DNA of 64,000 bases from Escherichia coli phage Wa28, in the sequence record LC788710.1, one strand, 5' to 3'. The translations under genes and the position numbers were made by a program. This document shows positions 15,765 to 42,170 of the stretch, one piece after another; positions within the stretch are counted from its first letter, which is position 1; each line of letters begins with the position of its first letter. The notes under the pieces are model-generated. The model had not been told where the DNA came from. It ran no database searches and was given only the letters and a program-made list of their open reading frames with translations.

Positions 15765-15775
15765 TTTATGTAATA

Positions 15776-15804
15776 ATTATACAGAACTTTAAGCGGTTAA
15801 GCAA
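15776..15804 (-). promoter_or_regulatory. early promoter (-35 TTGCTT, -10 TATAAT)
   Basis: Conserved module. Confidence 0.6.
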
Positions 15805-16075: not shown

Positions 16076-16086
16076 CTCCTTAAAAT

Positions 16087-16161
16087 TGGTGCACCCTGTT
16101 CGTATCGAACGAACCTCTCAAGCTCTTCAGGCAAGCGCTAATCCATCTCAGCTAAAGGTGC
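16087..16161 (-). tRNA. tRNA, anticodon not resolved by eye
   Basis: GTTCGTATCGAAC T-arm with 5-bp stem, acceptor pairing, CCA end. Confidence 0.4.
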
Positions 16162-16167
16162 AAATAT

Positions 16168-16243
16168 TGGCAAACCTACTAGGACTCGAACCTAGACCGT
16201 ACGGTTTTGGAGACCGACATGCTGTCCAGTAACACTCTAGGAA
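16168..16243 (-). tRNA. tRNA-Trp (anticodon CCA?), manual call
   Basis: CTAGGTTCGAGTCCTAG T-arm, loop CTCCAAA; acceptor has 2 mismatches. Confidence 0.4.
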
Positions 16244-16252
16244 TGCAGAAAT

Positions 16253-16329
16253 TGGCGTCCTGTGCGGGGATCGAACCCGCAAACCCCACCTTGAAAGGGT
16301 GGTGACTTTACCAGTTTGTCTAACAGGAC
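16253..16329 (-). tRNA. tRNA-Glu (anticodon TTC), manual call
   Basis: Discriminator G, anticodon stem-loop CCACC-CTTTCAA-GGTGG, GCGGGTTCGATCCCCGC T-arm. Confidence 0.6.
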
Positions 16330-16811
16330 TTAAATTGTTTATTGGATAGATTGTTAAACTCGGAAAGTATGTCGTCTACACTTCTGTCTAACACTACCCA
16401 TTCATTAAGCCGTTCAGGAAAGCTATTATGAAGCATTTTCTCCGCTTCTCTAGCATTAAACCAAAATGACCAATGTATTAACTTATAATCACGTAAGGGA
16501 GAATAAGTTTGGTAATTTCCTAATCTTGTTTTAGGATCAGAAGACATACCAATTTTTACATAGTTATCCCACGCTGGGTTAGTTATTGCATAAATAAAAC
16601 CACAGCTGGATTTTTCTCCAATACTTTTGTTATACTTGATAAAAGATAGGGCAGATAACTTCAAGCTATATCGACGATTACTATCGCGACCAAAGTTAGC
16701 TGTACCAAATGTGAGGCTTTCTAATATTAGATCTTTGTTTATATCGGCGGGTGAACCCAACTGTATAATACCTCTATTTGCAGCTTCTTGAATTATCCGA
16801 TCAATATACAT
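16320..16811 (-). CDS. T5orf172-domain protein (GIY-YIG-like), paralog of 12747-13220
   Basis: 163 aa; GFIYAITNPAWDNYVKIGMSSDPKTRLGNYQTYSP. Confidence 0.6.
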   Translation of the reverse strand: MYIDRIIQEAANRGIIQLGSPADINKDLILESLTFGTANFGRDSNRRYSLKLSALSFIKYNKSIGEKSSCGFIYAITNPAWDNYVKIGMSSDPKTRLGNYQTYSPLRDYKLIHWSFWFNAREAEKMLHNSFPERLNEWVVLDRSVDDILSEFNNLSNKQFKSC

Positions 16812-16829
16812 ATCCTTTACCTTTAATTT

Positions 16830-16917
16830 GGTGGGCGTTAATGGAGTCGAACCACTCGAGTCGCAATGACCAGGGATTTACAATCCCCTCCGCTACCACT
16901 TACGGAATAAACGCCCA
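16830..16917 (-). tRNA. tRNA-Tyr (anticodon GTA), class II, manual call
   Basis: Anticodon stem-loop GGGGA-TTGTAAA-TCCCT, long variable arm, CCA end. Confidence 0.6.
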
Positions 16918-17045
16918 TATTTAGAAGTATTCAAATACTTGTTTAAACACTTTTAAATATGTTTTCCAAATTAGATATCTATTATATCAAGTTTTGAAGG
17001 ACTGAGCAAGTCAAATTTTAAAGAACTTGCTCAGTGCTACATCAG

Positions 17046-17321
17046 TTACTCGAAGCTAGGAGTGACGCTCAGTTTGAATGGAAGCTCGAACACTTCTTCA
17101 TAATCATCATTGAGCGTAATTACACGACCTTCTAGCTTAGTCATGGTGATTTCGATATCAGCCCTTGCATCAGGAGCCATACCAGCTTCCACACATTTAG
17201 CTTTAACTTCCGGCAGAAGTTCTACGTCGTAGAAATAAAGCCATTCAATCTCACCTTCCCAGCCACCCCAGGATTTACAAACAGCACTTTCAACACCAGT
17301 TGCAGTAACACGTTTTGACAT
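17046..17321 (-). CDS. hypothetical protein
   Basis: ORF track 91 aa; promoter upstream. Confidence 0.45.
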   Translation of the reverse strand: MSKRVTATGVESAVCKSWGGWEGEIEWLYFYDVELLPEVKAKCVEAGMAPDARADIEITMTKLEGRVITLNDDYEEVFELPFKLSVTPSFE

Positions 17322-17351
17322 TCGTTAACTCCTTCATCAATTTATATAACT

Positions 17352-17381
17352 ATTATAACAGAAATCTTAAGTAAAAAGCAA
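17352..17381 (-). promoter_or_regulatory. early promoter (-35 TTGCTT, -10 TATAAT)
   Basis: Conserved module. Confidence 0.6.
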
Positions 17382-17411
17382 GTACATTTTTAAAATTTCT
17401 GCTTGGAGGAG

Positions 17412-17684
17412 TTAAACTCCTGATTCTTCAGCCAGATCAAGCCCAACCAACGTGATTGCCATAATAGCCGCGCCATGTTCTTTCTCCCCTAGCTCTTTGG
17501 CTTGAGCGAGAATATTGAGGAATTGCTTTTGAAAATCTGCAACTTCTTCTGTCATGCCTGCTTCAGCAATAATTCCTTTAAGCATAAAGCGTTGTGCCGT
17601 AATTTCAGGATTAGCCATTTGTTTTCTCCAGTTATTTAGAATGTAAGCCAAACTTAGGATCATAGCGATCGTAAGTCGTACCAT
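17412..17684 (-). CDS. hypothetical protein
   Basis: ORF track 90 aa. Confidence 0.45.
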   Translation of the reverse strand: MVRLTIAMILSLAYILNNWRKQMANPEITAQRFMLKGIIAEAGMTEEVADFQKQFLNILAQAKELGEKEHGAAIMAITLVGLDLAEESGV

Positions 17685-17769
17685 TAGTTGAAGCCTTAAT
17701 GCTATGGAAACGACAGTACATAAATTTACGTAGTGCTTTCTTAATAGCTTTCATTTTATTTCCTTAATT

Positions 17770-17846
17770 TGGTAGGGGTGGTGGGATTCGAACCCACAAA
17801 ACCTGAATTTTAAGTCCAGTACCTATGCCAATTCGATTACACCCCC
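17770..17846 (-). tRNA. tRNA with anticodon read as TAA but class I length (Leu-UAA? or misread Phe); manual call
   Basis: GTGGGTTCGAATCCCAC T-arm, anticodon stem-loop CTGGA-CTTAAAA-TTCAG, CCA end. Confidence 0.45.
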
Positions 17847-17854
17847 ATGTAATC

Positions 17855-18208
17855 TTAGCGAATCTCTAAACCCTGGAAATATCGAGGGAATGGAGAGCCA
17901 ACTTCAAAATTGATGCCCCAATTAAGTTCAACGAGTTCAGATTTATTAAGATCTAGGCCATTACCTTCAAAGATATAGCCGTAAACCGCAGGAAACATAG
18001 CTGCTAGATCTTCCATATCGGAATGAGCATTGTGTTCTTCACGGAACTGCTCAAACTCTTCAAAGAACTTTTCTAGGAAGAACTCAGGTACGATGAACGT
18101 TACCACATCAGTAGAATCATCGGTACGATACACCGTAGCTTGGAACAAGCCAACACCTAAAAGGTTTATTGCCGGAGTAGTAAAAATATCCATCTTAGCC
18201 TCGCTCAA
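17855..18208 (-). CDS. hypothetical acidic protein
   Basis: ORF track 117 aa. Confidence 0.45.
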   Translation of the reverse strand: MSEAKMDIFTTPAINLLGVGLFQATVYRTDDSTDVVTFIVPEFFLEKFFEEFEQFREEHNAHSDMEDLAAMFPAVYGYIFEGNGLDLNKSELVELNWGINFEVGSPFPRYFQGLEIR

Positions 18209-18380
18209 TGTCTAGACAAATTGCATATTCAGGGTTGATACCAGTACCTTTACATGTAGGACATTCCCATTCTCTACAGAAAATACCCCCCGGTTCTGCA
18301 TCATCCTGCCTACCACCACCATGACAGTCCTTACACCGACATTCTTCTAATGCTTTCTTCATTTCATAGAATCTAGACAT
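18195..18380 (-). CDS. small zinc-ribbon-like protein
   Basis: 61 aa; CKDCHGGG...CPTCKG. Confidence 0.4.
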   Translation of the reverse strand: MSRFYEMKKALEECRCKDCHGGGRQDDAEPGGIFCREWECPTCKGTGINPEYAICLDIERG

Positions 18381-18397
18381 ATAGTCTCCTGGTTAAT

Positions 18398-18475
18398 TGG
18401 TGGCTCCCGGAGGATTCGAACCTACCTACCTTTCGCTTATGAGGCGACGGCTCATACCAAATGAGCTTGAGAACC
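18398..18475 (-). tRNA. tRNA with CAT anticodon (Met or Ile2/lysidine candidate), manual call
   Basis: D-arm GCTC-ATTTGGTAT-GAGC, loop CTCATAA, acceptor GGTTCTC/GGGAGCC with G-U pairs. Confidence 0.5.
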
Positions 18476-18480
18476 AAATT

Positions 18481-18574
18481 TGGAGGAAGATGCCAGACTC
18501 GAACTGGCACACCGTGTCTCCACAGCTACTGGCTGTTTAGCAAACAGCTCCCTTACCTTTAGGGTTAATCTTCC
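18481..18574 (-). tRNA. tRNA-Ser (anticodon GCT), class II, manual call
   Basis: Anticodon stem-loop GCTGT-TTGCTAA-ACAGC, long variable arm, CCA end. Confidence 0.55.
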
Positions 18575-18588
18575 GAATTTATGAATAT

Positions 18589-18617
18589 ATTATACAGAAA
18601 ATTTCGGCATTAAGCAA
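18589..18617 (-). promoter_or_regulatory. early promoter immediately upstream of tRNA-Ser(GCT)
   Basis: Conserved module (-35 TTGCTT, -10 TATAAT). Confidence 0.6.
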
Positions 18618-18625
18618 GTGAAATT

Positions 18626-18922
18626 TTACTGAACACTGCACTGATACACTTGTTTGATACGTGTCACTGACTTCTTAGTTGGATTGATAGAAGAACCTTG
18701 CCACCAACGTGACTCTGAGCTAAGAACAGCGCCAGGAACAGCCTGCTCTTTTGGCAGAACAATATCAAAACACTGTTCACCCATATTATCTTTAATGTGT
18801 GACCAAATATCCAAAGTAAATCGTTCTAACTTATTACAAACCTGAACTTGACAAAGTTCCTGTTGCGGAGCAGCAAATACAGAAGTAGATACTAGAGCCA
18901 ATGCAAGTACAATGCGTTTCAT
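18626..18922 (-). CDS. secreted Cys-containing protein (signal peptide)
   Basis: 98 aa; MKRIVLALALVSTSVFAAP. Confidence 0.5.
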   Translation of the reverse strand: MKRIVLALALVSTSVFAAPQQELCQVQVCNKLERFTLDIWSHIKDNMGEQCFDIVLPKEQAVPGAVLSSESRWWQGSSINPTKKSVTRIKQVYQCSVQ

Positions 18923-18952
18923 GTTTGATTCCTCTCTCGAATTTATAAATAT

Positions 18953-18981
18953 ATTATACAGAAATTTTCTATATTAAGCAA
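18953..18981 (-). promoter_or_regulatory. early promoter
   Basis: Conserved module. Confidence 0.6.
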
Positions 18982-19028
18982 GTGAAAATTTCTGTATAAT
19001 AGCCCTCGCTTAGAGGGCTATAACTACT

Positions 19029-19721
19029 TTATTTGTTAACGCGTACAAAGTATCCTTTATAAGCTCCAAGAATAGAGTTGCCTAAGAATACTAGCCACAT
19101 TGCTAGGATTGCGTAAGATGCACCTGTAGATTGAGCAGTTACAAGCCAAATGTACACAGTACCAATGTTAATAGCAATCCAAATCAGCCATTGTTCAGCA
19201 TATTGTTTGACCATAAGCCACATAGCAATCACACTACCAACCGCAGTAAATGCATCCAACATTGGGAATGGATCAGCCGTAGTAGCAAGGAAACTACCAT
19301 AACCTAACGTGGCTACTGCTAAAATCCCTAGAGTCAGCAAAGCTTGAGCTTTTGTCAGAACTTTAGTTGGAACATCCGGTAGATTACTTGGCTTATTTTT
19401 ATGCCACAAGTACATTCCGTAGAACTGCATAGGAACGTAGTACAATAGGTTTAGTGCTGCGTTACCATAAAGATCAGCATTTAGAGCTGTAATACCGTAG
19501 GTCAGAACACCTACCAAACCCCAGACATAGTTGGAAACACGTCCTTTTGCAACCAGAATAACACAAACCACATTGGTTATTGCAGTAGCCCAATCTAGAG
19601 CTGTACCATTATAGTTTGCTAAACTAATGAAGACAACCGCTATGAACAGCCACAGATATTCCAGAGGTTTCCAGTTTTTAAAGTCATTTACGAGATAGTT
19701 AGTCATATTAAAACTCTCCAA
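19029..19721 (-). CDS. pnuC: nicotinamide riboside transporter PnuC-like
   Basis: 230 aa polytopic membrane protein with PnuC-like Trp/Tyr-rich helices (WKPLEYLW..., MQFYGMYLW). Confidence 0.7.
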   Translation of the reverse strand: MESFNMTNYLVNDFKNWKPLEYLWLFIAVVFISLANYNGTALDWATAITNVVCVILVAKGRVSNYVWGLVGVLTYGITALNADLYGNAALNLLYYVPMQFYGMYLWHKNKPSNLPDVPTKVLTKAQALLTLGILAVATLGYGSFLATTADPFPMLDAFTAVGSVIAMWLMVKQYAEQWLIWIAINIGTVYIWLVTAQSTGASYAILAMWLVFLGNSILGAYKGYFVRVNK

Positions 19722-20781
19722 CGTTAAAGTGATGAATCAGCCAGTCTACTGCGTTTACTGCTTCGTCCATACGAACTTTGTAGTCCGGAGAGTCGATGTA
19801 AACAGTACGCCCTTCAGGGAACTGATTTGGAAATTCTTTCTTCATCTGCTCGAACAGTTCAGAAGTAATTGAACGATCGGAGTTAATACGTAAACCATCA
19901 TCTACCCACTTGACAGTAGGCGCTAGAACAATTACTAAATCGTAATGTTCTTCTTTTGCAATTGCTGTAACCACAGGGTTCTTACTATGTTCATAAAGTC
20001 TGTGGTAGAACTCAGTAATAAAAGCATTTGTATCCACAAACATGATCTTATTTGCAGTACGTTCTGCTTCAAACTCTAGCTCTTTGTGTCTGAACGCAAT
20101 TTTACTATAGTCTTCGCTGGTAAGCAGATTTTCGTTACCAACTAGATCAACTTCACAATACGTTCGGCCATATTCTTCTACCCACGAAGTGTTGTATAGC
20201 TTCGCAAGGTATTTTGTTAAAGTAGTCTTTCCTGAGCTTTCAGTCCCAATGATTACAACCTTACGCACGTAATCTTTACGAGCTACGCTAGGAAGAAACT
20301 CCCAATACTTCATAAGATCATTACGAATCATTGTAGCTGAGATTGGAACACGAGTCCGATCAGAATCTACAATATAATGACCAAACTTCGGCAGATATTT
20401 CTTATATTCTGCATCATAGTCTAGTTCGCTAGAGAAAATGGTGATCTCAGGCAAATGTCCGTAATTTTCATTAAGGATTCTAGCATATTCCGGCCAACCA
20501 TTCGGATATTCAGGAATATCATCTTCAATAATGTACTCTACCGAAATGTGCTCAATATCCGCGTAAGTTTGTTCTAACCAACGAAGTCGATTCTTTAACT
20601 GTAATACTTCCTGATCACGAGTGTTCTGCTTATCCAGCCAACGATTATCATGACTAACTACAACAATAACTCGTTCACACATAGTTGCTGCTGTGTTTAT
20701 TAGGTTAATATGACCACGCGTTAATGGCGCGAACTTACCAATTACTAGACCAGTCTTAATCATATTTGATTCCTCTCTCAA
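19708..20781 (-). CDS. NadR-like bifunctional NMN adenylyltransferase / ribosylnicotinamide kinase
   Basis: 357 aa; nucleotidyltransferase motif GKFAPLTRGHINLI; Walker A IIGTESSGKTTL in C-terminal kinase-like domain. Confidence 0.7.
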   Translation of the reverse strand: MREESNMIKTGLVIGKFAPLTRGHINLINTAATMCERVIVVVSHDNRWLDKQNTRDQEVLQLKNRLRWLEQTYADIEHISVEYIIEDDIPEYPNGWPEYARILNENYGHLPEITIFSSELDYDAEYKKYLPKFGHYIVDSDRTRVPISATMIRNDLMKYWEFLPSVARKDYVRKVVIIGTESSGKTTLTKYLAKLYNTSWVEEYGRTYCEVDLVGNENLLTSEDYSKIAFRHKELEFEAERTANKIMFVDTNAFITEFYHRLYEHSKNPVVTAIAKEEHYDLVIVLAPTVKWVDDGLRINSDRSITSELFEQMKKEFPNQFPEGRTVYIDSPDYKVRMDEAVNAVDWLIHHFNVGEF

Positions 20782-20793
20782 ATTTATAAATAT

Positions 20794-20822
20794 ATTATAC
20801 AGAGAATTTAGCGTTCAAGCAA
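20794..20822 (-). promoter_or_regulatory. early promoter upstream of NadR-like gene
   Basis: Conserved module. Confidence 0.6.
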
Positions 20823-20969
20823 TCGAATTTTTAAACTTTTTAGTGGAAAAATCTCAAGGCATTTAGTGGTAGCACGTTGTTGCTACAATAATAGTATATG
20901 ATTCTAAAGAATTAAAGAATTAAATACTAAAGACCTTAGTTGAATAACTTATGGGCTTTTCTTTTGCCT

Positions 20970-21009
20970 TAAATACAGAAAAGCCCGCGCTCTCGGAGGA
21001 AACGCGGGC
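20970..21009 (-). terminator. rho-independent terminator (tandem hairpins)
   Basis: GCCCGCG...CGCGGGC hairpin followed on minus strand by TTTTCTGTATTT. Confidence 0.55.
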
Positions 21010-21034
21010 TTGGTTCGAAGATTACGTGTAACTA

Positions 21035-21979
21035 TTACTTGTTACGCATATCCATGATCATTTGACCATCGTAGCCAGTACCAACAACAGTCTGCGGTAC
21101 ACCACCTTGGTATTTTTCAGCACGAAGCATTTCAACTTCCAGCTGCTTCCAACGAATCATTTCAGGAGTAATGGTACGTTGCAGCGCGGCGTTAGCTTCA
21201 GCTTCTTTCTTAGCTGCGTACAGTTTAGCATCTGCGTCACGTTCGTTAGCTACTGCCATGTTTTCACGAGCAGAACGATCAGCTTCAGCTTGCTTAACTT
21301 TCTGCTGTGCTTCTTGTTCAACACGAGCCAATTCAGCTTTAGCGGCGTTAACTTGTTCTTCACGAACTTTTGTGTTTTGTACCTGTTCCATGATTACAGG
21401 TGGCAGAGTAATATCCTGAAGGAATACTTGCTTAACCGTGTAACCATAAGGACGCGCGTACTCTTCTACTTCTTGCTGAATAGCAGTTTGCAGTTGAGCC
21501 TGAATCTTAGCGTCGAACAGATCTTGTGCTTTTGGTACAGACTTACCAAACTCACGAATCGTAGATAGCATCTTCTCTTCAACGTACTTGTTCAGAGCTT
21601 GATCCTGAGTACCTGCGTTAACACGGTTCATAGGAGCTTTAGCACCATCAAACTGCAACATAACGGTAATGTCAACAGTGGACTTAAACTTATCCTGGCT
21701 AGGAACCTGGAGTTTATCCAGTTTCATAGAAATATCTTTCGTACTAAAAGTATCAAAAGAGGCGAATGGGTTGACAATATGGAACCCCGGCAATACAGGA
21801 TTAGGACTAACTTTACCCAGGAAAGTCTGAGTTTTAACCGTACCGTCCTGAACAACTGTATAGGAATTGAGAGCCAGAATAAGAGCGCCAAGACCAACTA
21901 CAGCACCAACACCCCAACGTTTAATAGTACGAATTACTTTTTGATCGGAAGTCAGTTCTTTAGTGTTTTTAGTAAACAT
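21035..21979 (-). CDS. SPFH/band-7 (prohibitin/HflK-like) membrane protein
   Basis: 314 aa; N-terminal TM, SPFH-like core and long Ala/Glu/Gln-rich coiled coil. Confidence 0.6.
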   Translation of the reverse strand: MFTKNTKELTSDQKVIRTIKRWGVGAVVGLGALILALNSYTVVQDGTVKTQTFLGKVSPNPVLPGFHIVNPFASFDTFSTKDISMKLDKLQVPSQDKFKSTVDITVMLQFDGAKAPMNRVNAGTQDQALNKYVEEKMLSTIREFGKSVPKAQDLFDAKIQAQLQTAIQQEVEEYARPYGYTVKQVFLQDITLPPVIMEQVQNTKVREEQVNAAKAELARVEQEAQQKVKQAEADRSARENMAVANERDADAKLYAAKKEAEANAALQRTITPEMIRWKQLEVEMLRAEKYQGGVPQTVVGTGYDGQMIMDMRNK

Positions 21980-21990
21980 ATATTTCCTTA

Positions 21991-22191
21991 TTATTTAGAA
22001 GAGTTAGCTACTACAGTTACTTTAGTTGCAGAAATAAACAGGCTAGCATCCACAGCAAATTCAGGAGCTTTGATATCTCCGTTATGAAATATGACTATAC
22101 CGGAGACTACTTCAAATGCTAGCGCTGTAACATCGGTGGTATTTACTTGTGAATGTTCACCTACTACTTTTACTATATATCGTGTTTTCAC
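21991..22191 (-). CDS. hypothetical small protein
   Basis: ORF track 66 aa. Confidence 0.35.
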   Translation of the reverse strand: MKTRYIVKVVGEHSQVNTTDVTALAFEVVSGIVIFHNGDIKAPEFAVDASLFISATKVTVVANSSK

Positions 22192-22217
22192 TTTATTTTC
22201 CTAGCAGTTAATAAAAT

Positions 22218-22292
22218 TGGCCGAGGTGACAGGATTCGAACCTGCATAAAGGAATTTAGAAGACTCCTGCCTATCCCTTAGACTACACCCCG
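22218..22292 (-). tRNA. tRNA-Arg (anticodon TCT), manual call
   Basis: CAGGTTCGAATCCTG T-arm, anticodon stem-loop GGAGT-CTTCTAA-ATTCC, CCA end. Confidence 0.55.
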
Positions 22293-36736: not shown

Positions 36737-36928
36737 CTACAATTTTAAATAAGCCTATGATATTGCATTTAAATAAAAAATTTGCTTGCTTTTATTGGGA
36801 GATGTATGGTACTAGATAATCATTTTATATCGCGTACACGGGTGCGTGATTATACTATTTTTAGTAGAGGTTGGCAAATAAAATTTTTTGACTCAGATCA
36901 ATTTACAGAATGTTATAGTAAAATATTG

Positions 36929-36957
36929 TTGACATCCGCCTTCGAATGAGTTATAAT
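36929..36957 (+). promoter_or_regulatory. consensus sigma70 promoter for nrdD (TTGACA-17bp-TATAAT)
   Basis: TTGACA at 36929-36934, TATAAT at 36952-36957, AGGAGGG SD before ATG 36987. Confidence 0.7.
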
Positions 36958-36986: not shown

Positions 36987-38861
36987 ATGAATCGCAATGA
37001 AGAACTAAAGTATAAAGGAATGCAGTCCTTGATTCGAAACTGCAAAGAAATTATCGAAGGTTCAGCAGATGAAGAGCTGCTGTTTAATAATGCCAATAAG
37101 CCCTCAGAACGTTTCCCTACACAAAGGGATATGCTTGCAGGGGAATTGAGTAAATATCTGATTCTGGAAGAAATGCCGATCCAGATTCGAAATGCTCACA
37201 TGATTGGTGATATTCACTTCCATGATGCTGATTACGCTGCGTTAGGTATGACTAACTGTTGCCTGGTTGCTTTGGAAGATATGTTGAAGAATGGTATGAA
37301 GGTTGGTAATGCTGAAATCAGTACGCCAAACTCTATCACTACTGCGGCTGCTATTACAGCTCAGATTATCACTCAGGTTAGCTCACACCAATATGGTGGT
37401 ACTTCTGTAGACCGATTAGATGAAGTATTGGCTCCTTATGTTCGTAAGTCTTATGATAAGAATCATGCGTTTGCAAAACGTTGGACTAAGGATGAAGCCA
37501 AAGCATCTGTAATGGCTACGGAAATGACTGAGAAAGAAGTTTACGATGCCTGCCAGGGTCTAGAGTACGAAATCAATACGATGTTCAACTCTAATGGTCA
37601 GAGTCCATTTATTACCTTTGGTTTCGGTTTAGGAACTTCTTGGGAAGCACGTCTTGTACAGAAAGCAATCTTAGAAGTGCGTATGGATGGTTTGGGTATC
37701 AATAAACGTACTGCTATCTTCCCTAAACTGGTATTTGTTCTACGTGACGGCGTAAACATGAAACCTGGCGATGTTAACTATGATATCAAGAAGTTAGCTA
37801 TGAAGTGTACTGCTGAACGTATGTATCCGGACTATATCAGCTATGATAAGGTTGTAGAAGTTACGGGGGACTACAAAGTCTCTATGGGCTGTCGTTCATT
37901 CCTGGCTGCTGCGGAAGATGGTGAAACTTCTGGTCGTAACAACTTAGGCGTTGTTTCCGTAAACCTTCCTCGAATCGCTATCGAAGCGGAAGGAAATATT
38001 GATCTATTCTTCGATCTGCTTGAGCTGCGTGTGGATACCGCGTTAAAAGCATTGGAGTGGAGGGTTGATCGCTTAAAATACATTCAAGCTAAAGCTGCGC
38101 CCATCCTCTATATGTCAGGAGCCTTTGGATTACGTCTGGGGCCAGATGAATATGTATTTGATCATTTCTACAAGCGTGCTTCTGTATCCCTAGGATATAT
38201 TGGCTGCCACGAAATGTTGCAGCTCATGTTTGGTAAAGATGTAGATACAATGTCTGAGTCTTGTATCAAGTTCGTTCAACGTGTGCTACAATACATGCGT
38301 GATCGTGCTGATCAGAAGAAGGAAGAGACTCAATTAGGGTATAGTCTGTATGCTACACCATCTGAATCTCTATGTGATCGCTTCTGTCGCCTAGACCGTG
38401 AGTATTTCCCAGAGCATGAAGATATTCTGGCTAAAGGATATTACACTAATTCCCATCACCTTGATGTAGAACGTAAGGTTGCTCCAAATGTGAAGTTTGA
38501 TTATGAGTCTAACTTTACTCCTATTGCTTCTGGTGGGTGCATTTCCTATGTGGAATTACCTGATATGAAACGATTCCCTGATGCATTGGAATGGGTTATT
38601 AACTATGCTGCAAGTAAAGTTCATTACTTCGGTATTAATACTCCAGTAGACTCTTGTGGGGAATGCGGGTTCTTGGGTGAAACTATAGCTTCTGAGGATG
38701 GTTTCAAATGTCCAATTTGTGGCAATCATGATCCTGAGACTCTTGAGGTAACTCGTCGAGTTTGTGGATATCTTGGAAATCCAGGTGCTCGTCCGTTTAA
38801 CCCAGGTAAACAACATGAGGTTATGGGTCGAGTGAAACATCAAGACATTCGCGCTAAATAA
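36987..38861 (+). CDS. nrdD: anaerobic ribonucleoside-triphosphate reductase (class III)
   Basis: 624 aa; C-terminal CPICGNHD zinc site and RRVCGYLG glycyl radical motif. Confidence 0.85.
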   Translation: MNRNEELKYKGMQSLIRNCKEIIEGSADEELLFNNANKPSERFPTQRDMLAGELSKYLILEEMPIQIRNAHMIGDIHFHDADYAALGMTNCCLVALEDMLKNGMKVGNAEISTPNSITTAAAITAQIITQVSSHQYGGTSVDRLDEVLAPYVRKSYDKNHAFAKRWTKDEAKASVMATEMTEKEVYDACQGLEYEINTMFNSNGQSPFITFGFGLGTSWEARLVQKAILEVRMDGLGINKRTAIFPKLVFVLRDGVNMKPGDVNYDIKKLAMKCTAERMYPDYISYDKVVEVTGDYKVSMGCRSFLAAAEDGETSGRNNLGVVSVNLPRIAIEAEGNIDLFFDLLELRVDTALKALEWRVDRLKYIQAKAAPILYMSGAFGLRLGPDEYVFDHFYKRASVSLGYIGCHEMLQLMFGKDVDTMSESCIKFVQRVLQYMRDRADQKKEETQLGYSLYATPSESLCDRFCRLDREYFPEHEDILAKGYYTNSHHLDVERKVAPNVKFDYESNFTPIASGGCISYVELPDMKRFPDALEWVINYAASKVHYFGINTPVDSCGECGFLGETIASEDGFKCPICGNHDPETLEVTRRVCGYLGNPGARPFNPGKQHEVMGRVKHQDIRAK

Positions 38862-38867: not shown

Positions 38868-38899
38868 AGCCAGGTTGCTAGTCGACCTGGCTTTTATTT
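38868..38899 (+). terminator. rho-independent terminator
   Basis: GCCAGGT..ACCTGGC hairpin then TTTTATTTT. Confidence 0.6.
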
Positions 38900-38959: not shown

Positions 38960-39241
38960 ATGAGCGAATTGCTTCCGAAAGTAGATGTTTCCCATCTTGT
39001 AGAGCCTAGTGAAGAACGTAAGGCTCTAGATTGGTTGGGCGGATTTGATTATCGTCGTGTTGTTGCAACATGGAATGATAAGAAAGTTAAGAAGTTTCGG
39101 GTACATTATGTAGGTAAAGACAAGTGGCTCTGGATTGATTATGAAGAATCGAAGGGGTCTACTAAGGCTGTGAAAATTTATCGTATGTATGGGTATTATT
39201 ATGCTCACTGTGATAAGAATGAATTTACAGTACAGAACTAA
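38960..39241 (+). CDS. hypothetical protein
   Basis: ORF track 93 aa. Confidence 0.5.
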   Translation: MSELLPKVDVSHLVEPSEERKALDWLGGFDYRRVVATWNDKKVKKFRVHYVGKDKWLWIDYEESKGSTKAVKIYRMYGYYYAHCDKNEFTVQN

Positions 39242-39250
39242 GGAACAAGA

Positions 39251-39454
39251 ATGAAAAACGTAAAACATCTTAAATATCGCTTAATTTACAACGGACGTAT
39301 GGAAACAGAAGATCTAGCTCAGCTAGCGATCAATTCAGATGAAGTTACAGTTCGTGCTTTGTCCATCGAGAAGCTGCGTGCTTCTTACGAAAATCGTATT
39401 ATGGAATTGGAGGAAAAACTTTATGGACTTCTTGAATCAGAATCTAAAAAGTAA
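39251..39454 (+). CDS. hypothetical small protein
   Basis: ORF track 67 aa. Confidence 0.45.
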   Translation: MKNVKHLKYRLIYNGRMETEDLAQLAINSDEVTVRALSIEKLRASYENRIMELEEKLYGLLESESKK

Positions 39455-39617
39455 TTTAGAAAATATGCTTATGGAGCAGTGGAATGCTGGGTATAATGCT
39501 GGAGTAGCTACCTGTATTGCTGGTTTGGATATGCTTATTAAGCAAGAGAAGGTTCGCCCAGAAGAAGCAATTCTGCTCCAAAATATCATCGAAGGATTCA
39601 AGCAAGGAATCGTATAA
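39423..39617 (+). CDS. hypothetical small protein (start uncertain; track gives 39339)
   Basis: In-frame ATG at 39423 limits overlap with upstream ORF. Confidence 0.35.
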   Translation: MDFLNQNLKSNLENMLMEQWNAGYNAGVATCIAGLDMLIKQEKVRPEEAILLQNIIEGFKQGIV

Positions 39618-40468
39618 TGCGTAGACTAATCGTTGTTAGTGGTGCAGGTTTGAGTGTAGATAGTGGTGTTCGTGCTTTCCGTACTGATACTGCTAGTGGG
39701 AAATCCTTATGGGATGAGTACGATCTAGAGGAAGTATGTAGCTTGCCTAACTTTGAAGCTGGCTTCCGTCGCTTCTGTGGTGAAGATGATCCTAACTACT
39801 TCAGTGCTCGTTTCCCTGGCATTGATGAAGATGGTAACGATCTGTATCTCAAGACTCATGAGTTCTACAACATGCGTCGTCAGGAATTACAGACTGTTGA
39901 GCCTAACATTGCCCATCTGCGAATTGCAGAATGGTTCCAGCGTTATGGTGCGGATAGCGTGAAGAACTTCACTACTAACGTTGATGACCTTCTGGAACGT
40001 GCTGGTATCCCTCGTGATGAAATCATTCACGCTCACGGGTACTTGAAAGAGGTGATCTATCGTCAGGGTCGCAACCAAATCATTGAAGATGTTGGGTATA
40101 CTGCGATTGCCCCTGAGGATTACGAATGGGTAAAACCAAACGTAACATTCTTTGGTGAGACGGCTCCGTGGTATATGGGTCAGATTAACCTGTTTGATAC
40201 ACTTACTAGCAATGATATGGTTATTGTAGTAGGTTGTAGCAACCAAGTAATCGACTTCAACTGGGAGCTATTTCCTGCTGTATGTCGTGGAACTAAGATG
40301 ATGGTTGTTAACCCACAAGTTCGTTATGACGAACAGCTTGAGTATGAGAAACGTGGTGTTACTGTATGGCGTGCTGGAGCTGCCGAAGTTTTTGGTAATA
40401 AACACTTTATTGATCAAGTTGAAGCTTTTATGGAGGGAAATATTTATGTCCCAGAAAAGCATGTGTGA
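39617..40468 (+). CDS. Sir2-family (sirtuin-like) NAD-dependent protein
   Basis: 283 aa; N-terminal VVSGAGLSVDSGVRAFRT matches the sirtuin GAGIS...G...FR NAD-binding motif. Confidence 0.6.
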   Translation: MRRLIVVSGAGLSVDSGVRAFRTDTASGKSLWDEYDLEEVCSLPNFEAGFRRFCGEDDPNYFSARFPGIDEDGNDLYLKTHEFYNMRRQELQTVEPNIAHLRIAEWFQRYGADSVKNFTTNVDDLLERAGIPRDEIIHAHGYLKEVIYRQGRNQIIEDVGYTAIAPEDYEWVKPNVTFFGETAPWYMGQINLFDTLTSNDMVIVVGCSNQVIDFNWELFPAVCRGTKMMVVNPQVRYDEQLEYEKRGVTVWRAGAAEVFGNKHFIDQVEAFMEGNIYVPEKHV

Positions 40469-40628
40469 TCTTTTAGTATGGCCAGACGGTAGTTGGTGCT
40501 ACCGTTTCGAATTTGCTACTGATGACTTCTCATGGAAGAGTGATGATTTCTGCGTTATCTATGAGGATACAGCAGAATGGAAAGAGTTCCTTATTAAGGA
40601 GGGAGAATATGGTGAAGAAGATTTTTAA
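40446..40628 (+). CDS. hypothetical small protein
   Basis: ATG at 40446 with GGAGGG SD; 60 aa. Confidence 0.3.
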   Translation: MSQKSMCDLLVWPDGSWCYRFEFATDDFSWKSDDFCVIYEDTAEWKEFLIKEGEYGEEDF

Positions 40629-40794
40629 GGGTATCTGGAAAGGTCTAGTATGGTTTGTTAACCTAATCGGTATGATTACCATTTATTCTCTGTTCCTATC
40701 TGTTATGTGGGGTAAAGGTGAGCTGAAGGTTCCAATTCCTTTTACTGATGAAGTTAAAGTCTGGACGTGGGATGCTACTGGTGGAAATAAGTAA
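40609..40794 (+). CDS. small membrane protein
   Basis: ATG at 40609 with AAGGAGGG SD; hydrophobic helix. Confidence 0.35.
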   Translation: MVKKIFKGIWKGLVWFVNLIGMITIYSLFLSVMWGKGELKVPIPFTDEVKVWTWDATGGNK

Positions 40795-41287
40795 TACTCC
40801 TATAATTTTTCTGGATATTGATGGAGTGCTCAATTCGAGCATCTCTCACCATCATGCTCCAGATAGTGAAAAGCTATTCTTTGGTAGTGATTGGGTTTAT
40901 AAGCCCTTACTCCAGGCTTTTCAGAACTTCCTTAAACCTTCTCCAATAATGATTGTTGGGGTATCTTCGTGGTTTTCTGTACGAAACGAGATGGAGAACG
41001 TCCAGATTATGACCGGACTCGGTTTGATCGATCGTTTTCTTGGTACTACAGATTTTACTGGAGGTGGTTTATATCGAGGTAATTCTGTCTTACGTTTCGT
41101 AGAAAAACATAAGCTCAAGCATTGGTGCGTCCTAGATGATGCTGGTGCTATGATGTACCAATTTCCTACTGTTATTGTAAATGGCAGGAATGGAATAAAC
41201 CTTCAAGATTTAAATGCTATAAGCTATATGCTGGAATTTAGTCCAGATCTTGAAATGTGTAAGGCTCTTCAGAAACTTAAGGTATAA
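40772..41287 (+). CDS. HAD-superfamily phosphatase-like protein (start uncertain; track gives 40748)
   Basis: N-terminal IIFLDIDGVLN matches HAD motif I (DxDG). Confidence 0.5.
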   Translation: MLLVEISNTPIIFLDIDGVLNSSISHHHAPDSEKLFFGSDWVYKPLLQAFQNFLKPSPIMIVGVSSWFSVRNEMENVQIMTGLGLIDRFLGTTDFTGGGLYRGNSVLRFVEKHKLKHWCVLDDAGAMMYQFPTVIVNGRNGINLQDLNAISYMLEFSPDLEMCKALQKLKV

Positions 41288-41289
41288 GC

Positions 41290-41718
41290 ATGTTCAATAA
41301 TATTTTCATGAAAGAGGTAAATCCTATGCTCCTCAACTTCTGGCGTTCTCTCCCTAATGGTATGTACAATGAAACCATCAATCTGCTTAAGATTTGGTGT
41401 GAGAATAACGATATCTTCCTGTCTTTTAAAGGCCCACTAGAGGAAGCTCCGTGTATTGGAGTTAGCGTGGATTTAGGGGAGGGAGTAGAAGAAATTGTAG
41501 ACTGGAAAGAACTCGATGAAATGGGTCTGGTTTTTGCCTTGAACCATAAGCTGTTTATGCCTGCAAATCACCGTCTTATTGTAAACTATCGCACTGGTGA
41601 AGCTCCTGCTTTCCAGGTAAATGAACGTGAGGGCTGGTCATATTCGCCCGAAGAAGTAAATGAGGGGATTCAGAAACTTCGTCGTTTCGGGTATATGATC
41701 CCAGGTTTAACTGCTTAA
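41290..41718 (+). CDS. hypothetical acidic protein (paralog A)
   Basis: 142 aa; shares WxELxxMGLxxALN ... GE(A/S)P ... PGL pattern with the next ORF. Confidence 0.5.
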   Translation: MFNNIFMKEVNPMLLNFWRSLPNGMYNETINLLKIWCENNDIFLSFKGPLEEAPCIGVSVDLGEGVEEIVDWKELDEMGLVFALNHKLFMPANHRLIVNYRTGEAPAFQVNEREGWSYSPEEVNEGIQKLRRFGYMIPGLTA

Positions 41719-41727
41719 GGAGGCAGA

Positions 41728-42123
41728 ATGGAACAAGTATTTTGGCGTCAGATAGATCCTAGTTTGGTAGAGCGTGCTGAAGGGCTCCTTGCACGTTGGT
41801 GGGGGGTTGACAAGGTTAGTGTAACATTTCCGTTTACTTCTGTAACAGACCCTAGTGTAGGTGTCTTTGTGGACGAAGATGAAGATGATGGTTGGGAAGC
41901 TGACTGGAATGAATTGTCCAGTATGGGCTTGATTGTTGCCCTCAACTTCTCTATATTCCACCCACGTGGTTTAGCTATTACACGTGATCCCGAAACCGGT
42001 GAATCCCCTTATCTTTTGCAAGTAGAAGATGATATTTGGGAGTACACCGAAGATATTCTCGAAGAAGCTAAAGGTCAATTAAATCGCATTGGGATCTATG
42101 TTCCAGGCCTAAATGATGATTGA
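41728..42123 (+). CDS. hypothetical acidic protein (paralog B)
   Basis: 131 aa; tandem paralog of 41290-41718. Confidence 0.5.
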   Translation: MEQVFWRQIDPSLVERAEGLLARWWGVDKVSVTFPFTSVTDPSVGVFVDEDEDDGWEADWNELSSMGLIVALNFSIFHPRGLAITRDPETGESPYLLQVEDDIWEYTEDILEEAKGQLNRIGIYVPGLNDD

Positions 42124-42146: not shown

Positions 42147-42170
42147 ACCGAGTCATTTTGGCTCGGTTTT
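42147..42170 (+). terminator. rho-independent terminator
   Basis: CCGAGTCATTTTGGCTCGG then TTTT. Confidence 0.6.

What the first reader, a model, noticed from the sequence alone, without database searches (positions are those of the whole stretch)
39617..40468. Sir2-like NAD-binding protein in the early replication block
The N-terminus VVSGAGLSVDSGVRAFRT matches the sirtuin NAD-binding signature. A phage sirtuin could act as a deacylase or ADP-ribosyltransferase on host or phage proteins, or act against host defence. It sits just downstream of nrdD, among genes expressed with the replication machinery.
Basis: partly seen in the sequence, partly recalled or inferred. Interest (0 to 1): 0.55.

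Follow-up and report, generated by a model that had tools for sequence, protein, structure and literature searches.

The report
Zinc-free phage sirtuin, already annotated
The gene is a real and well-conserved sirtuin of T5-like phages, already labelled as such in hundreds of public genomes; it lacks the usual zinc site, sits beside a phosphatase linked to RNA repair, and its true substrate has never been tested.

Summary
The ORF at 39617-40468 (+, 283 aa) is real and is a sirtuin: Pfam SIR2 77.7 bits, PHROG 2162 "Sir2" E 2.5e-107, and a confident model closest to E. coli CobB, Sir2Af1 and SIRT5. The window is a T5-like Salmonella phage. The gene is the counterpart of T5.102 and is already annotated "Sir2-like" in hundreds of records, so the finding is correct but not new.

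What the label hides:
- The NAD loop, Asn/Asp, catalytic His140, FGE motif and the class III Tyr84/Arg87 anion-binding pair are invariant.
- All four zinc cysteines are absent throughout the clade.
- The canonical Gln of TQNID is Thr.
- All CobB equivalog cut-offs are failed.

The gene is co-transcribed with an intact HAD_SAK_2 phosphatase. That linkage survives gene-order inversion in divergent T5-like phages. In rV5-like phages the orthologue sits inside an RNA ligase-cREC-Sir2-MazG cassette. This matches a published, untested prediction (Iyer et al. 2022) of a Tpt1-like RNA 2'-phosphate-removing sirtuin.

I favour that reading only slightly (~0.38) over a CobB-like protein deacylase (~0.32). 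Evidence against it: an acidic protein, no RNA ligase in the window, and incomplete linkage. Two natural deletions (DT57C, Shivani) show the Sir2-HAD pair is dispensable.

The parts
38868..38892 (+). Terminator-like hairpin after nrdD; upstream boundary of the transcription unit
   Evidence: 10-bp stem with 6 GC pairs followed by a T-run. T5 has an annotated terminator and then a promoter at the equivalent place.
38960..39241 (+). Small ORF (93 aa), first gene of the block, function unknown
   Evidence: phrog_7953 E 1.5e-64, no Pfam hit.
39251..39454 (+). Small ORF (67 aa), T5.101-like, function unknown
   Evidence: phrog_5236; 91% identical to its T5 counterpart.
39423..39617 (+). Small ORF (64 aa) whose stop overlaps the Sir2 start codon (TAATG); part of the divergent segment that travels with Sir2
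   Evidence: phrog_5827; only 34% identical to T5 although the flanks are ~90%; found upstream of Sir2 in 2 lineages.
39617..40468 (+). Zinc-free, class III-derived sirtuin (counterpart of T5.102), 283 aa
   Evidence: Pfam SIR2 77.7 bits; PHROG 2162; AF2 model pLDDT 88, pTM 0.86; Foldseek best match CobB 1s5p, TM 0.82 normalised to CobB.
39641..39682 (+). NAD-binding loop G9-A10-G11-x-S13...S16-G17...F21-R22
   Evidence: Invariant in 23 clade members and nearly invariant in 146 full-length representatives. Aligns to GAGISAESGIRTFR of CobB.
39758..39844 (+). Variable insertion (aa 48-76) in the helical small domain, absent from CobB and from many clade members
   Evidence: Gapped in 9 of 23 aligned members; unaligned to CobB.
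39866..39880 (+). Y84-x-x-R87-R88, the class III anion-binding pair (as in SIRT5/CobB 'FYxxRR')
   Evidence: Invariant; aligned to FYNARR of CobB. The role in SIRT5/CobB is from established knowledge.
39971..39985 (+). T119-T120-N121-V122-D123: canonical TQNID with Gln replaced by Thr
   Evidence: Invariant in the clade. Non-Gln at this position co-occurs with loss of the Zn cysteines across 146 representatives.
40034..40036 (+). Codon CAC for His140, the candidate catalytic base
   Evidence: Aligned to the His of the HG motif of CobB; invariant in all 146 full-length representatives.
40037..40132 (+). Beta-hairpin module (aa 141-172) in place of the zinc ribbon; contains no cysteine
   Evidence: 0 Cys here in the query and in the close clade. 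Modelled as two strands, 141-150 and 153-158, with pLDDT 93-94.
40148..40159 (+). F178-F179-G180-E181 (FGE substrate-cleft motif)
   Evidence: F178, F179 and E181 are invariant and G180 nearly so in 23 members; aligned to WFGE of CobB.
40446..40628 (+). Small acidic ORF (60 aa) overlapping the Sir2 3' end by 23 nt
   Evidence: phrog_5116. Found directly downstream of Sir2 in 5 of 38 lineages, mostly T5-like.
40609..40794 (+). Small hydrophobic ORF (61 aa), function unknown
   Evidence: phrog_11166.
40772..41287 (+). HAD_SAK_2 phosphatase (T5.105 counterpart), the likely functional partner. The longest ORF starts at 40748; the start annotated in relatives is 40772.
   Evidence: Pfam PF18143 66 bits against a cut-off of 27.5. 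Catalytic DxDGV, Ser and DD motifs are invariant. Model pLDDT 94. Adjacent to Sir2 in 6 T5-like lineages.
41290..41718 (+). DUF7415 protein (T5.106-like)
   Evidence: Pfam PF24187 125.5 bits.
41728..42123 (+). DUF7415 paralogue (T5.107-like), last gene of the block
   Evidence: Pfam PF24187 93.5 bits.
42147..42167 (+). Terminator-like hairpin; downstream boundary of the transcription unit
   Evidence: 9-bp stem with 5 GC pairs followed by a T-run. A terminator is annotated at the same place in Stitch and T5.

Best explanation
The ORF encodes the T5.102-type phage sirtuin. It is an NAD+-consuming enzyme derived from class III (CobB/SIRT5-like) sirtuins that keeps the complete catalytic apparatus but has lost the zinc site. 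It is expressed from a ten-gene early operon together with an intact HAD_SAK_2 phosphatase. Shown: family membership, fold, conserved active-site residues, zinc-ligand loss, operon structure, conserved linkage to RNA-end-processing genes, purifying selection, and dispensability. Inferred, following the prediction of Iyer et al. 2022: the acceptor is not acyl-lysine but a phosphate on damaged RNA. A 2'-phosphate would attack C1'' of NAD+ and release nicotinamide, as the acyl oxygen does in deacylation. His140 would then activate the ribose 2''-OH to attack the phosphate, yielding 2'-OH RNA plus ADP-ribose 1'',2''-cyclic phosphate. That is the chemistry of Tpt1/KptA carried out on a sirtuin scaffold, with Tyr84/Arg87/Arg88 holding the anionic group. 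The HAD phosphatase would remove remaining terminal phosphates or process the ADP-ribose phosphate product. The biological role would be healing of tRNA or mRNA cut by host ribonuclease defences. The confidence of 0.38 is for this mechanism; confidence that the protein is a genuine, functional SIR2-family enzyme is about 0.97.
For: Sirtuin identity.
Intact catalytic set (GAGxS..FR, N121, D123, H140, FGE, N232, Y84/R87), invariant in 23 members and largely in 146 representatives.
Departure from deacylases: no Zn cysteines; Gln to Thr, co-varying with Zn loss (81/7/15/43, Fisher 5e-17); every CobB equivalog cut-off failed (71-88 bits against 221-395). The zinc module is reported as required for deacetylation by canonical sirtuins (PMC12700824).
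Context:
- A HAD_SAK_2 gene lies 280 nt downstream in one terminator-bounded operon.
- HAD and Sir2 stay adjacent with inverted order in Erwinia phage KEY and a 71-kb contig.
- HAD is adjacent in 6 T5-like lineages.
- In rV5-like phages the 46%-identical orthologue lies in RNA_lig_T4_1 - cREC_REC - Sir2 - MazG-like, with an AAA_33 kinase and a metallophosphoesterase divergently upstream. RnlA+MazG+MPE lie within about 3 kb in 5 lineages, and one more has RnlA alone.
- cREC, Nudix and Acb1/2H neighbours appear in further lineages.
- In DT57C two separate deletions destroyed Sir2 and HAD together.
The phage carries 29 tRNA genes.
Published prediction for exactly this clade and neighbourhood type: PMC9503650.
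Functional gene: dN/dS about 0.1.
Against: - No sirtuin has been shown to act on nucleic acid; I found no experimental paper on any phage sirtuin.
- The protein is strongly acidic (pI 4.8, net -17), as is the whole Zn-less clade (median pI 5.1).
- The 64-kb window has no RNA ligase, cREC, polynucleotide-kinase-type, MPE or MazG homologue, so the source of a 2'-phosphate and the sealing step are unexplained in T5-like phages.
- Linkage is incomplete. Sugarland-like phages and L023 keep Sir2 without HAD. In ~149-kb myophages the RNA-repair cassette lies about 30 kb from Sir2. About half of the 38 lineages show no recognisable RNA-repair neighbour.
- KptA does not replace Sir2 in 23 cREC loci that lack it.
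- The Tyr/Arg pair and acyl-channel residues are equally what a desuccinylase would keep.
- The RNA-repair label of HAD_SAK_2 and cREC is itself a computational prediction from the same research group.
- The HAD fold has no close solved relative.
Confidence: 0.38

Rival explanations
1. It is a protein lysine deacylase like CobB or SIRT5, probably preferring acidic acyl groups (succinyl, malonyl). The phage would use it early in infection to remove acyl marks from host or phage proteins. The zinc ribbon is simply replaced by a self-stabilising beta-hairpin, and the neighbouring genes are unrelated to its function.
For: The closest relatives by sequence and fold are proven deacylases (CobB, Sir2Af1, SIRT5). 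All residues needed for deacylation are invariant, including H140, F21, the FGE motif and the Y84/R87 pair that in SIRT5/CobB binds the acyl carboxylate (role from established knowledge). The small domain is modelled with pLDDT 93-94 without zinc. An acidic surface suits Lys-rich basic substrates. Sir2 occurs without RNA-repair neighbours in many lineages, and once next to NAMPT. A 2016 modelling study reached this conclusion for the Vibrio phage homologues (PMC5107563).
Against: The zinc module is reported as required for deacetylation in canonical sirtuins (PMC12700824). The TQNID Gln is changed to Thr clade-wide. The second substrate-stapling strand is remodelled (GTSxxVYP becomes GCSNQVINFNWELFP). 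All CobB equivalog models are failed by a wide margin. The host already has CobB. This reading does not explain the repeated, rearrangement-resistant linkage to RNA-end-processing genes in unrelated phage groups.
Confidence: 0.32
2. It transfers ADP-ribose from NAD+ to a small anionic molecule rather than to a macromolecule, for example a nucleotide or an NAD-derived metabolite or signal. The HAD enzyme then dephosphorylates the product, by analogy with the CobT/CobC steps for which CobB was first found as a substitute.
For: A sirtuin-plus-phosphatase pair in one operon. The protein is acidic with few conserved basic residues, and those lie mainly at known active-site motifs (R22, R87, R88, K173). 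Neighbours in other lineages are nucleotide-directed enzymes (MazG-like, Nudix, NAMPT, nucleotidyltransferase). CobB's link to ribazole-phosphate synthesis is summarised in PMC9503650.
Against: No candidate acceptor is identified. No precedent as a main activity. The HAD is capless-like, a type usually acting on macromolecular ends, though the fold match is weak. Entirely inferential.
Confidence: 0.1
3. It is a protein mono-ADP-ribosyltransferase that modifies a host or phage protein, as T4 Alt/ModA/ModB or the SirTM sirtuins do.
For: Sirtuins can ADP-ribosylate proteins, and T5.102 is annotated 'deacetylase, ADP-ribosylase'. Zn-independent sirtuin classes include ADP-ribosyltransferases. It is an early-operon gene.
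Against: SirTMs lack the catalytic His and are paired with a macrodomain. Here the His is invariant, and no macrodomain was found among the operon genes or among sampled neighbours. Sequence and fold place the protein with class III, not SirTM.
Confidence: 0.08
4. It is an NAD+ glycohydrolase that lowers NAD+ to shut down host metabolism or exclude competing phages, like the zinc-less defence sirtuins.
For: Zinc-less sirtuins of the SIR2_2 type are mostly NADases.
Against: No PADLOC defence-model hit. No SIR2_2 Pfam hit. No defence sirtuin among the 50 best-listed fold matches. The phage family uses an NAD+-dependent DNA ligase encoded about 7 kb downstream in related loci, so NAD+ depletion would be self-harming. 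The Tyr/Arg acceptor-binding pair is conserved.
Confidence: 0.06

Closest known systems
T5.102 and its annotated orthologues in Demerecviridae (PHROG 2162, 'Sir2-like protein')
   Same: Same gene at the same genomic position (nrdD - small ORFs - Sir2 - small ORFs - HAD - DUF7415 x2 - origin-binding protein). Proteins 100% identical are already in GenBank.
   Different: The window carries a different allele from T5 itself (52% identity amid ~90% flanks). None of these proteins has been characterised experimentally, as far as the searchable literature shows.
E. coli CobB / human SIRT5 / Archaeoglobus Sir2Af1 (class III sirtuin deacylases)
   Same: Best sequence and fold matches (27% identity, TM 0.82 normalised to CobB). 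Shares the GAGxS..FR loop, Asn/Asp, catalytic His, FGE motif and the Tyr-x-x-Arg anion-binding pair.
   Different: No zinc-binding cysteines; Gln of TQNID replaced by Thr; remodelled strand after the GxS motif; a 29-residue variable insertion; scores of 71-88 bits against equivalog cut-offs of 221-395.
The 'distinct clade of viral sirtuins' predicted to act in RNA repair (Iyer, Burroughs, Anantharaman, Aravind 2022, PMC9503650)
   Same: Matches their type 3 neighbourhood (sirtuin + Swiss-army-knife HAD, typified by Escherichia phage SP15). The 46%-identical rV5-like orthologue matches their type 2 (RNA ligase, cREC, kinase, MazG, calcineurin-like phosphoesterase).
   Different: Nothing differs in kind. 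Added here: residue-level evidence (Zn loss, Gln to Thr, retained Tyr/Arg), exceptions to the linkage, natural deletions, the acidic charge, and allelic replacement.
Tpt1/KptA RNA 2'-phosphotransferase
   Same: Proposed to work alike: NAD+-dependent removal of an RNA 2'-phosphate through an ADP-ribosylated intermediate and a 1'',2''-cyclic phosphate product. The two-step chemistry parallels sirtuin deacylation (established knowledge; proposal).
   Different: The fold is unrelated, so this is not a family member. The activity is untested. KptA was not found occupying the equivalent slot in related cassettes.
Defence sirtuins (ThsA, DSR1/2, Sir2-HerA, SPARSA; Pfam SIR2_2) and SirTM
   Same: They also lack the zinc module.
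   Different: No PADLOC or SIR2_2 hit, and none appears among the 50 best-listed fold matches. SirTMs lack the catalytic His and pair with a macrodomain; here the His is invariant and no macrodomain partner was found.

Membership tests
SIR2 / sirtuin superfamily (Pfam PF02146) | Profile match above the curated threshold | tested here: met
   77.7 bits against a cut-off of 24, E 1.4e-21; PHROG 2162 E 2.5e-107.
SIR2 / sirtuin superfamily (Pfam PF02146) | Rossmann-fold large domain plus helical small domain | tested here: met
   AF2 model pLDDT 88, pTM 0.86. Foldseek E 9.5e-16, TM 0.82 normalised to CobB 1s5p; all 50 listed top hits are sirtuins.
SIR2 / sirtuin superfamily (Pfam PF02146) | NAD-binding GAGxS...FR loop and the Asn/Asp of the TQNID motif | tested here: met
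   G9 A10 G11 S13 F21 R22 N121 D123 are invariant.
SIR2 / sirtuin superfamily (Pfam PF02146) | Catalytic histidine (HG motif) | tested here: met
   H140-G141 aligns to the HG of CobB. His is present in 146 of 146 full-length representatives.
SIR2 / sirtuin superfamily (Pfam PF02146) | NAD+-dependent catalytic activity | not testable with these tools
   Requires a biochemical assay.
Canonical zinc-containing sirtuin deacylases (classes I-IV, U) | Four-cysteine zinc ribbon (CxxC...CxxC) in the small domain | tested here: not met
   0 Cys in residues 142-176 of the query and of the 23 close members. The CobB cysteines align to Tyr, to gaps or to other residues.
Canonical zinc-containing sirtuin deacylases (classes I-IV, U) | Gln of the TQNID motif | tested here: not met
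   T120 is invariant in the clade. Non-Gln co-occurs with Zn loss.
CobB / class III deacylase (NCBIfam NF040867, NF001752-5) | Equivalog score above the curated cut-off | tested here: not met
   Best scores are 87.7 against 243 (subfamily model) and 71.3 against 320 (prot_deacyl_CobB).
CobB / class III deacylase (NCBIfam NF040867, NF001752-5) | Tyr-x-x-Arg pair that binds acidic acyl groups | tested here: met
   Y84 and R87 are invariant and aligned to FYNARR of CobB.
Defence-type sirtuins (SIR2_2; ThsA, DSR, Sir2-HerA, SPARSA) | Match to defence-system models or the SIR2_2 profile; association with a sensor or partner domain | tested here: not met
   0 PADLOC families at E<=1. Only PF02146 was hit in Pfam. 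It is a stand-alone 283-aa protein in a phage early operon.
SirTM (macrodomain-linked ADP-ribosylating sirtuins) | Absence of the catalytic His and an operon-linked macrodomain | tested here: not met
   His140 is present. No macrodomain among the 8 operon neighbours scanned. Features of the class are taken from PMC8556138.
Phage RNA-repair-associated sirtuin clade (Iyer et al. 2022) | Phage-encoded sirtuin in a conserved neighbourhood with RNA-end-processing genes (HAD-SAK; or RNA ligase, cREC, kinase, MazG) | tested here: met
   HAD_SAK_2 lies in the same operon. Linkage is kept after inversion of gene order. The orthologue lies in an RnlA-cREC-Sir2-MazG operon. The linkage is not universal.
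Phage RNA-repair-associated sirtuin clade (Iyer et al. 2022) | RNA 2'-phosphotransferase (Tpt1-like) activity | not testable with these tools
   Prediction only. An indirect displacement test (KptA in place of Sir2) was uninformative.
Tpt1/KptA | KptA/Tpt1 protein family membership (Pfam PF01885) | tested here: not met
   Only SIR2 was hit in Pfam, and the fold is sirtuin. Any resemblance would be in mechanism only.

The most novel reading that the evidence does not exclude
The protein is the first sirtuin whose physiological acceptor is nucleic acid. In this reading a zinc-free sirtuin performs Tpt1-like NAD+-dependent removal of RNA 2'-phosphates (or ADP-ribosylates RNA phosphate ends). Together with a capless HAD phosphatase it forms a minimal two-gene RNA-end-healing module that lets T5-like phages undo damage from host RNA-cleaving defences. 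The idea has been published as a prediction, so the novelty would lie in demonstrating it.
Probability: 0.3. Interest if true: 0.75.

Novelty: already known. Interest (0 to 1): 0.3.

Why it matters
As an annotation, it adds nothing. T5.102-type Sir2 genes have been labelled since the T5 genome was published. The family has its own PHROG, and the window's protein is identical to deposited sequences.

The label 'NAD-dependent deacetylase' is nevertheless probably too specific. The clade has lost the zinc site, fails the CobB models, and repeatedly travels with RNA-end-processing genes.

If the Tpt1-like reading is right, it would extend sirtuin chemistry to nucleic acids. It would also identify a compact RNA-repair counter-defence in a very widely used model phage family, whose members also carry near-complete tRNA sets. 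If the deacylase reading is right, it would be a phage tool for rewriting host protein acylation.

Either way the question can be settled with a few in vitro assays, and natural deletion phages (DT57C, Shivani) are available as comparators. A practical by-product is that the neighbouring HAD phosphatase is mislabelled 'Sir2' in RefSeq/PHROG annotations.

Tried and rejected
1. Defence-type Sir2/NADase: no PADLOC hit, no SIR2_2 hit, no defence sirtuin among the listed fold matches. Rejected as a family assignment.
2. CobB orthology: all NCBIfam equivalogs failed by a wide margin. Rejected.
3. Non-orthologous displacement test. I asked whether KptA/Tpt1 sits beside cREC where this sirtuin is absent. 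I scanned 117 neighbours from 23 cREC loci and found no KptA among the 25 (of 55) families listed, mostly metallophosphoesterases. Uninformative.
4. Unbiased Pfam scan of 130 neighbours from 23 lineages without seed hits. Most have no Pfam match; there were only sparse cREC, Nudix, NAMPT and Acb1 hits. This gives weak support and shows that linkage is not universal.
5. Search of the window for rV5-type RNA ligase, cREC, kinase, MPE and MazG: none found.
6. The small ORF overlapping the Sir2 3' end as a universal partner: found in only 5 of 38 lineages. Rejected as a general feature.
7. HAD fold as a discriminator: confident model, but no close PDB neighbour (TM about 0.45), and no sequence match in PDB. 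Inconclusive.
8. Contexts of distant HAD_SAK_2 relatives: one of three has an RNA ligase about 3 kb away. Too few to conclude.
9. Literature searches for any experimental work on T5.102 or phage sirtuins found none. The library does not include most subscription journals.
11. Pseudogene or decaying gene: rejected, since dN/dS is about 0.1 and the motifs are invariant.
Full report
OBSERVATION. The ORF is real and lies exactly where reported: ATG at 39617, stop ending at 40468, + strand, 283 aa, with residues 6-23 reading VVSGAGLSVDSGVRAFRT. It matches Pfam SIR2 (PF02146) at 77.7 bits (cut-off 24, E 1.4e-21). It matches the phage family PHROG 2162, already named 'Sir2 (NAD-dependent deacetylase)', over its full length at E 2.5e-107. 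By sequence the closest solved structure is E. coli CobB (1s5p, E 1.7e-16). A model built from 23 homologues is confident (mean pLDDT 88, pTM 0.86). Its best structural matches are CobB (TM 0.82 normalised to CobB), Sir2Af1 and SIRT5, which are class III sirtuins; all 50 listed top matches are sirtuins and none is a defence-type Sir2. There is no hit to any PADLOC defence model.

SOURCE AND PRIOR ANNOTATION. The window is a T5-like siphophage of Salmonella (Demerecviridae, Epseptimavirus), 98-99.9% identical over this region to phages NBSal002, 1-29, BSP22A and Stitch. [quoted passage not shown] A 100%-identical protein is deposited. In T5 itself the counterpart is T5.102. tblastn finds the family in 978 phage records: T5-like phages, rV5-like Vequintavirinae, ~148-kb myophages, Vibrio schizoT4 phages and jumbo phages. 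A 2016 paper already listed T5 among phages with Sir2/CobB and noted that the Vibrio phage versions lack a zinc ligand (PMC5107563). The observation and its family assignment are therefore correct but already known.

WHAT THE PROTEIN KEEPS AND WHAT IT HAS LOST. In 23 clade members (53-79% identical to the window protein) the following are invariant:
- G9-A10-G11-x-S13, S16-G17 and F21-R22 (NAD loop)
- N121 and D123
- H140-G141 (the His aligned to the catalytic HG of CobB)
- F178-F179-x-E181 (FGE motif)
- G206-x-S208
- N232
- Y84, R87 and R88 (the 'FYxxRR' of class III sirtuins, where Tyr and Arg bind the carboxylate of succinyl- or malonyl-lysine; that role is established knowledge)

Three departures are equally consistent.
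- There is no cysteine in the segment that replaces the zinc ribbon (residues 142-176). The CobB zinc cysteines align to non-Cys residues or gaps. The segment is nevertheless modelled as a beta-hairpin with pLDDT 93-94.
- The Gln of the canonical TQNID motif is Thr (TTNVD).
- The strand after the GxS motif is remodelled to a clade-specific SNQVINFNWELFP.

Among 146 full-length representatives from a search of 1.84 billion proteins, Gln with four cysteines occurs 81 times and non-Gln without them 43 times, against 7 and 15 mixed cases (Fisher 5e-17, not corrected for phylogeny). His140, Asn121, Phe21 and Arg22 stay essentially invariant in both groups. All NCBIfam CobB/deacylase equivalog models are failed by a wide margin (best 87.7 bits against 243). 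A recent paper states that the zinc module is required for deacetylation by canonical sirtuins (PMC12700824). SirTM ADP-ribosyltransferases are characterised by loss of the catalytic His (PMC8556138), which is not the case here. The protein is thus a canonical-subfamily sirtuin with a complete catalytic centre that has secondarily lost the zinc site. It is under strong purifying selection (median dN/dS 0.10 in the T5-type allele group and 0.07 in an rV5-like group).

SURROUNDINGS. The gene is not directly attached to nrdD. nrdD (36987-38861) has its own perfect-consensus promoter and is followed by a strong terminator-like hairpin (38868-38892). Ten tightly packed, partly overlapping ORFs then run from 38960 to 42123 and end at a second hairpin (42147-42167). 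T5 and Stitch have terminators annotated at the same places. Within this block:
- The Sir2 start overlaps the stop of a 64-aa ORF.
- A 60-aa ORF overlaps the Sir2 3' end.
- After one more small ORF comes a 171-aa protein (40772-41287) matching Pfam PF18143, 'HAD domain in Swiss Army Knife RNA repair proteins' (66 bits, cut-off 27.5).
- Two DUF7415 paralogues follow.

The HAD keeps its catalytic DxDGV, Ser and DD motifs and folds confidently (pLDDT 94). It has no close solved relative; its weak neighbours are capless HAD phosphatases, including the PNKP phosphatase domains.

CONTEXT ELSEWHERE. In the divergent T5-like Erwinia phage KEY and in a 71-kb contig (Sir2 60% and 54% identical), HAD_SAK_2 and SIR2 remain neighbours but in the opposite order. 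In the rV5-like phage Murica the 46%-identical orthologue lies in the operon RNA_lig_T4_1 - cREC_REC - Sir2 - MazG-like. An AAA_33 kinase and a metallophosphoesterase lie divergently upstream, and a tRNA cluster is about 5 kb away.

Across 86 loci grouped into 38 lineages at 75% Sir2 identity:
- HAD_SAK lies next to Sir2 in 6 T5-like lineages.
- RnlA+MazG+MPE lie within about 3 kb in 5 lineages, and a sixth has RnlA alone.
- cREC occurs in several more.

An unbiased Pfam scan of 130 neighbours from the remaining 23 lineages mostly found nothing. It added cREC (2), Nudix (2), NAMPT (1) and Acb1/2H (1).

This reproduces the neighbourhood types described by Iyer, Burroughs, Anantharaman and Aravind (2022). 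They proposed that this viral sirtuin clade removes RNA 2'-phosphates in the manner of KptA/Tpt1 (PMC9503650). I found no experimental test of that proposal, or of any phage sirtuin.

EXCEPTIONS AND COUNTER-EVIDENCE.
- Sugarland-like Klebsiella phages and one 106-kb phage keep Sir2 without HAD.
- In ~149-kb myophages the cREC-MPE-RnlA-MazG cassette lies about 30 kb from Sir2.
- KptA was not found beside cREC in 23 loci lacking this sirtuin, so there is no sign of functional displacement.
- The 64-kb window contains no homologue of the rV5-type RNA ligase, cREC, kinase, MPE or MazG. In T5-like phages neither the origin of a 2'-phosphate nor the sealing step is accounted for.
- The protein is strongly acidic (pI 4.8, net charge -17), as is the Zn-less clade generally (median pI 5.1, 90% below 6). 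The Zn-containing relatives have a median pI of 6.3. This is not what one expects of an RNA-binding enzyme, although the co-operonic RNA ligase is also mildly acidic.
- The RNA-repair labels of HAD_SAK_2 and cREC are themselves computational predictions.

NATURAL DELETIONS. In phage DT57C the ORF annotated 'sir2 (defective)' is a chimera of Sir2 residues ~197-235 and the last 37 residues of the HAD. Two separate deletions removed the Sir2 N-terminus and everything from Sir2 residue ~236 to HAD residue ~142. In phage Shivani a single deletion fuses the upstream 64-aa ORF to HAD residue ~66. It removes Sir2, both small ORFs and the HAD nucleophile motif, and the Shivani authors noted the missing Sir2 (PMC4342426). 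The pair is therefore dispensable for laboratory growth and tends to be lost together. These chimeras also explain why PHROG 18062 and RefSeq label the HAD gene (T5.105 and its orthologues) as 'Sir2'.

MECHANISM. Two readings are close.

The RNA reading (0.38) rests on the repeated, rearrangement-resistant association with RNA-end-processing genes in unrelated phage groups. It also rests on the departures from deacylase hallmarks and on chemical plausibility. A phosphate oxygen attacking C1'' of NAD+, followed by His-activated attack of the ribose 2''-OH, mirrors both the Tpt1 and the sirtuin two-step pathways (inference from established mechanisms). The invariant Tyr/Arg/Arg would suit an anionic group. 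The phage's 29 tRNA genes fit a lifestyle exposed to tRNA-targeting defences.

The deacylase reading (0.32) rests on the closest relatives being proven deacylases, the fully retained acyl-lysine machinery, the confidently folded zinc-free small domain, the acidic surface, and the many lineages without RNA-repair neighbours.

Less likely are transfer to a small anionic metabolite followed by HAD dephosphorylation (0.10), protein ADP-ribosylation (0.08) and NADase activity (0.06). NADase activity would conflict with the NAD+-dependent DNA ligase encoded a few kb downstream in related loci.

VERDICT. The finding is a correct identification of a known, widely annotated phage gene. It is of low novelty and moderate residual interest, because the true substrate is unknown and a published, testable prediction of a new sirtuin chemistry applies to it.

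Noticed in passing
window 40772-41287 (T5.105 counterpart); L009:5589-6095: The HAD_SAK_2 phosphatase gene is labelled 'Sir2 (NAD-dependent deacetylase)' in RefSeq records and in PHROG 18062. The profile of that PHROG matches only the C-terminal half of the HAD. The error probably stems from Sir2-HAD deletion chimeras such as the 'defective sir2' of DT57C.
   Followed up: yes
window 39423-40628 versus L009 (T5) 4335-5584: Divergence island. Between this phage and T5, Sir2 is 52% identical and its flanking small ORFs 34-53%, while nrdD, orf67, HAD and the origin-binding protein are 89-94%. The window's Sir2 is closer to those of Sugarland (63%), Erwinia phage KEY (60.5%) and ~149-kb myophages (60%). 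This indicates allelic replacement by recombination, since dN/dS within alleles is about 0.1.
   Followed up: partly
L008:3468-3740 (DT57C); L130:2429-2818 (Shivani): Two independent natural deletions in viable Tequintavirus phages remove Sir2 together with the catalytic part of the HAD gene, leaving in-frame chimeric ORFs.
   Followed up: yes
window 8833-22292, - strand: 29 tRNA genes covering nearly all amino acids, including three tRNA-Met and pairs for Gln, Ala, Lys, Gly, Leu, Ser and Arg.
   Followed up: no
window 41290-41718 and 41728-42123: Two paralogous DUF7415 proteins (T5.106/T5.107-like) follow the Sir2/HAD genes in most T5-like lineages, including those that lack HAD. The T5 record notes similarity of T5.105 and T5.107 to neighbouring ORFs (303c, 299c) of Aeromonas phage Aeh1. 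Function unknown.
   Followed up: partly
window 36849-36957: Divergent promoter pair between phoH and nrdD: a perfect sigma-70 consensus (TTGACA-17-TATAAT) at 36929-36957 on the + strand and an 11/12 match at 36877-36849 on the - strand.
   Followed up: no
window 39737-39739 (Cys41 of the sirtuin): A cysteine in the helical small domain (V40-C41) is invariant in the close clade and at least 90% conserved in the wider zinc-less clade. CobB has Ala at this position. Role unknown.
   Followed up: no
MZ079855.1 (Klebsiella phage vB_Kpn_3) 67716-68552: The 76%-identical orthologue is annotated 'tail assembly protein', which is evidently an annotation error.
   Followed up: no
window 40446-40628: A 60-aa acidic, Trp-rich ORF overlaps the Sir2 3' end by 23 nt, suggesting translational coupling. 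It recurs directly downstream of Sir2 in 5 of 38 lineages regardless of where HAD sits. It may be a lineage-specific partner or regulator.
   Followed up: partly
L002:3942-4211 (about 4 kb upstream of Sir2 in a ~141-kb myophage contig): A gene with the Acb2/Tad1 hairpin domain (anti-CBASS/anti-Thoeris sponge family) lies in the same gene string as the Sir2 orthologue.
   Followed up: no
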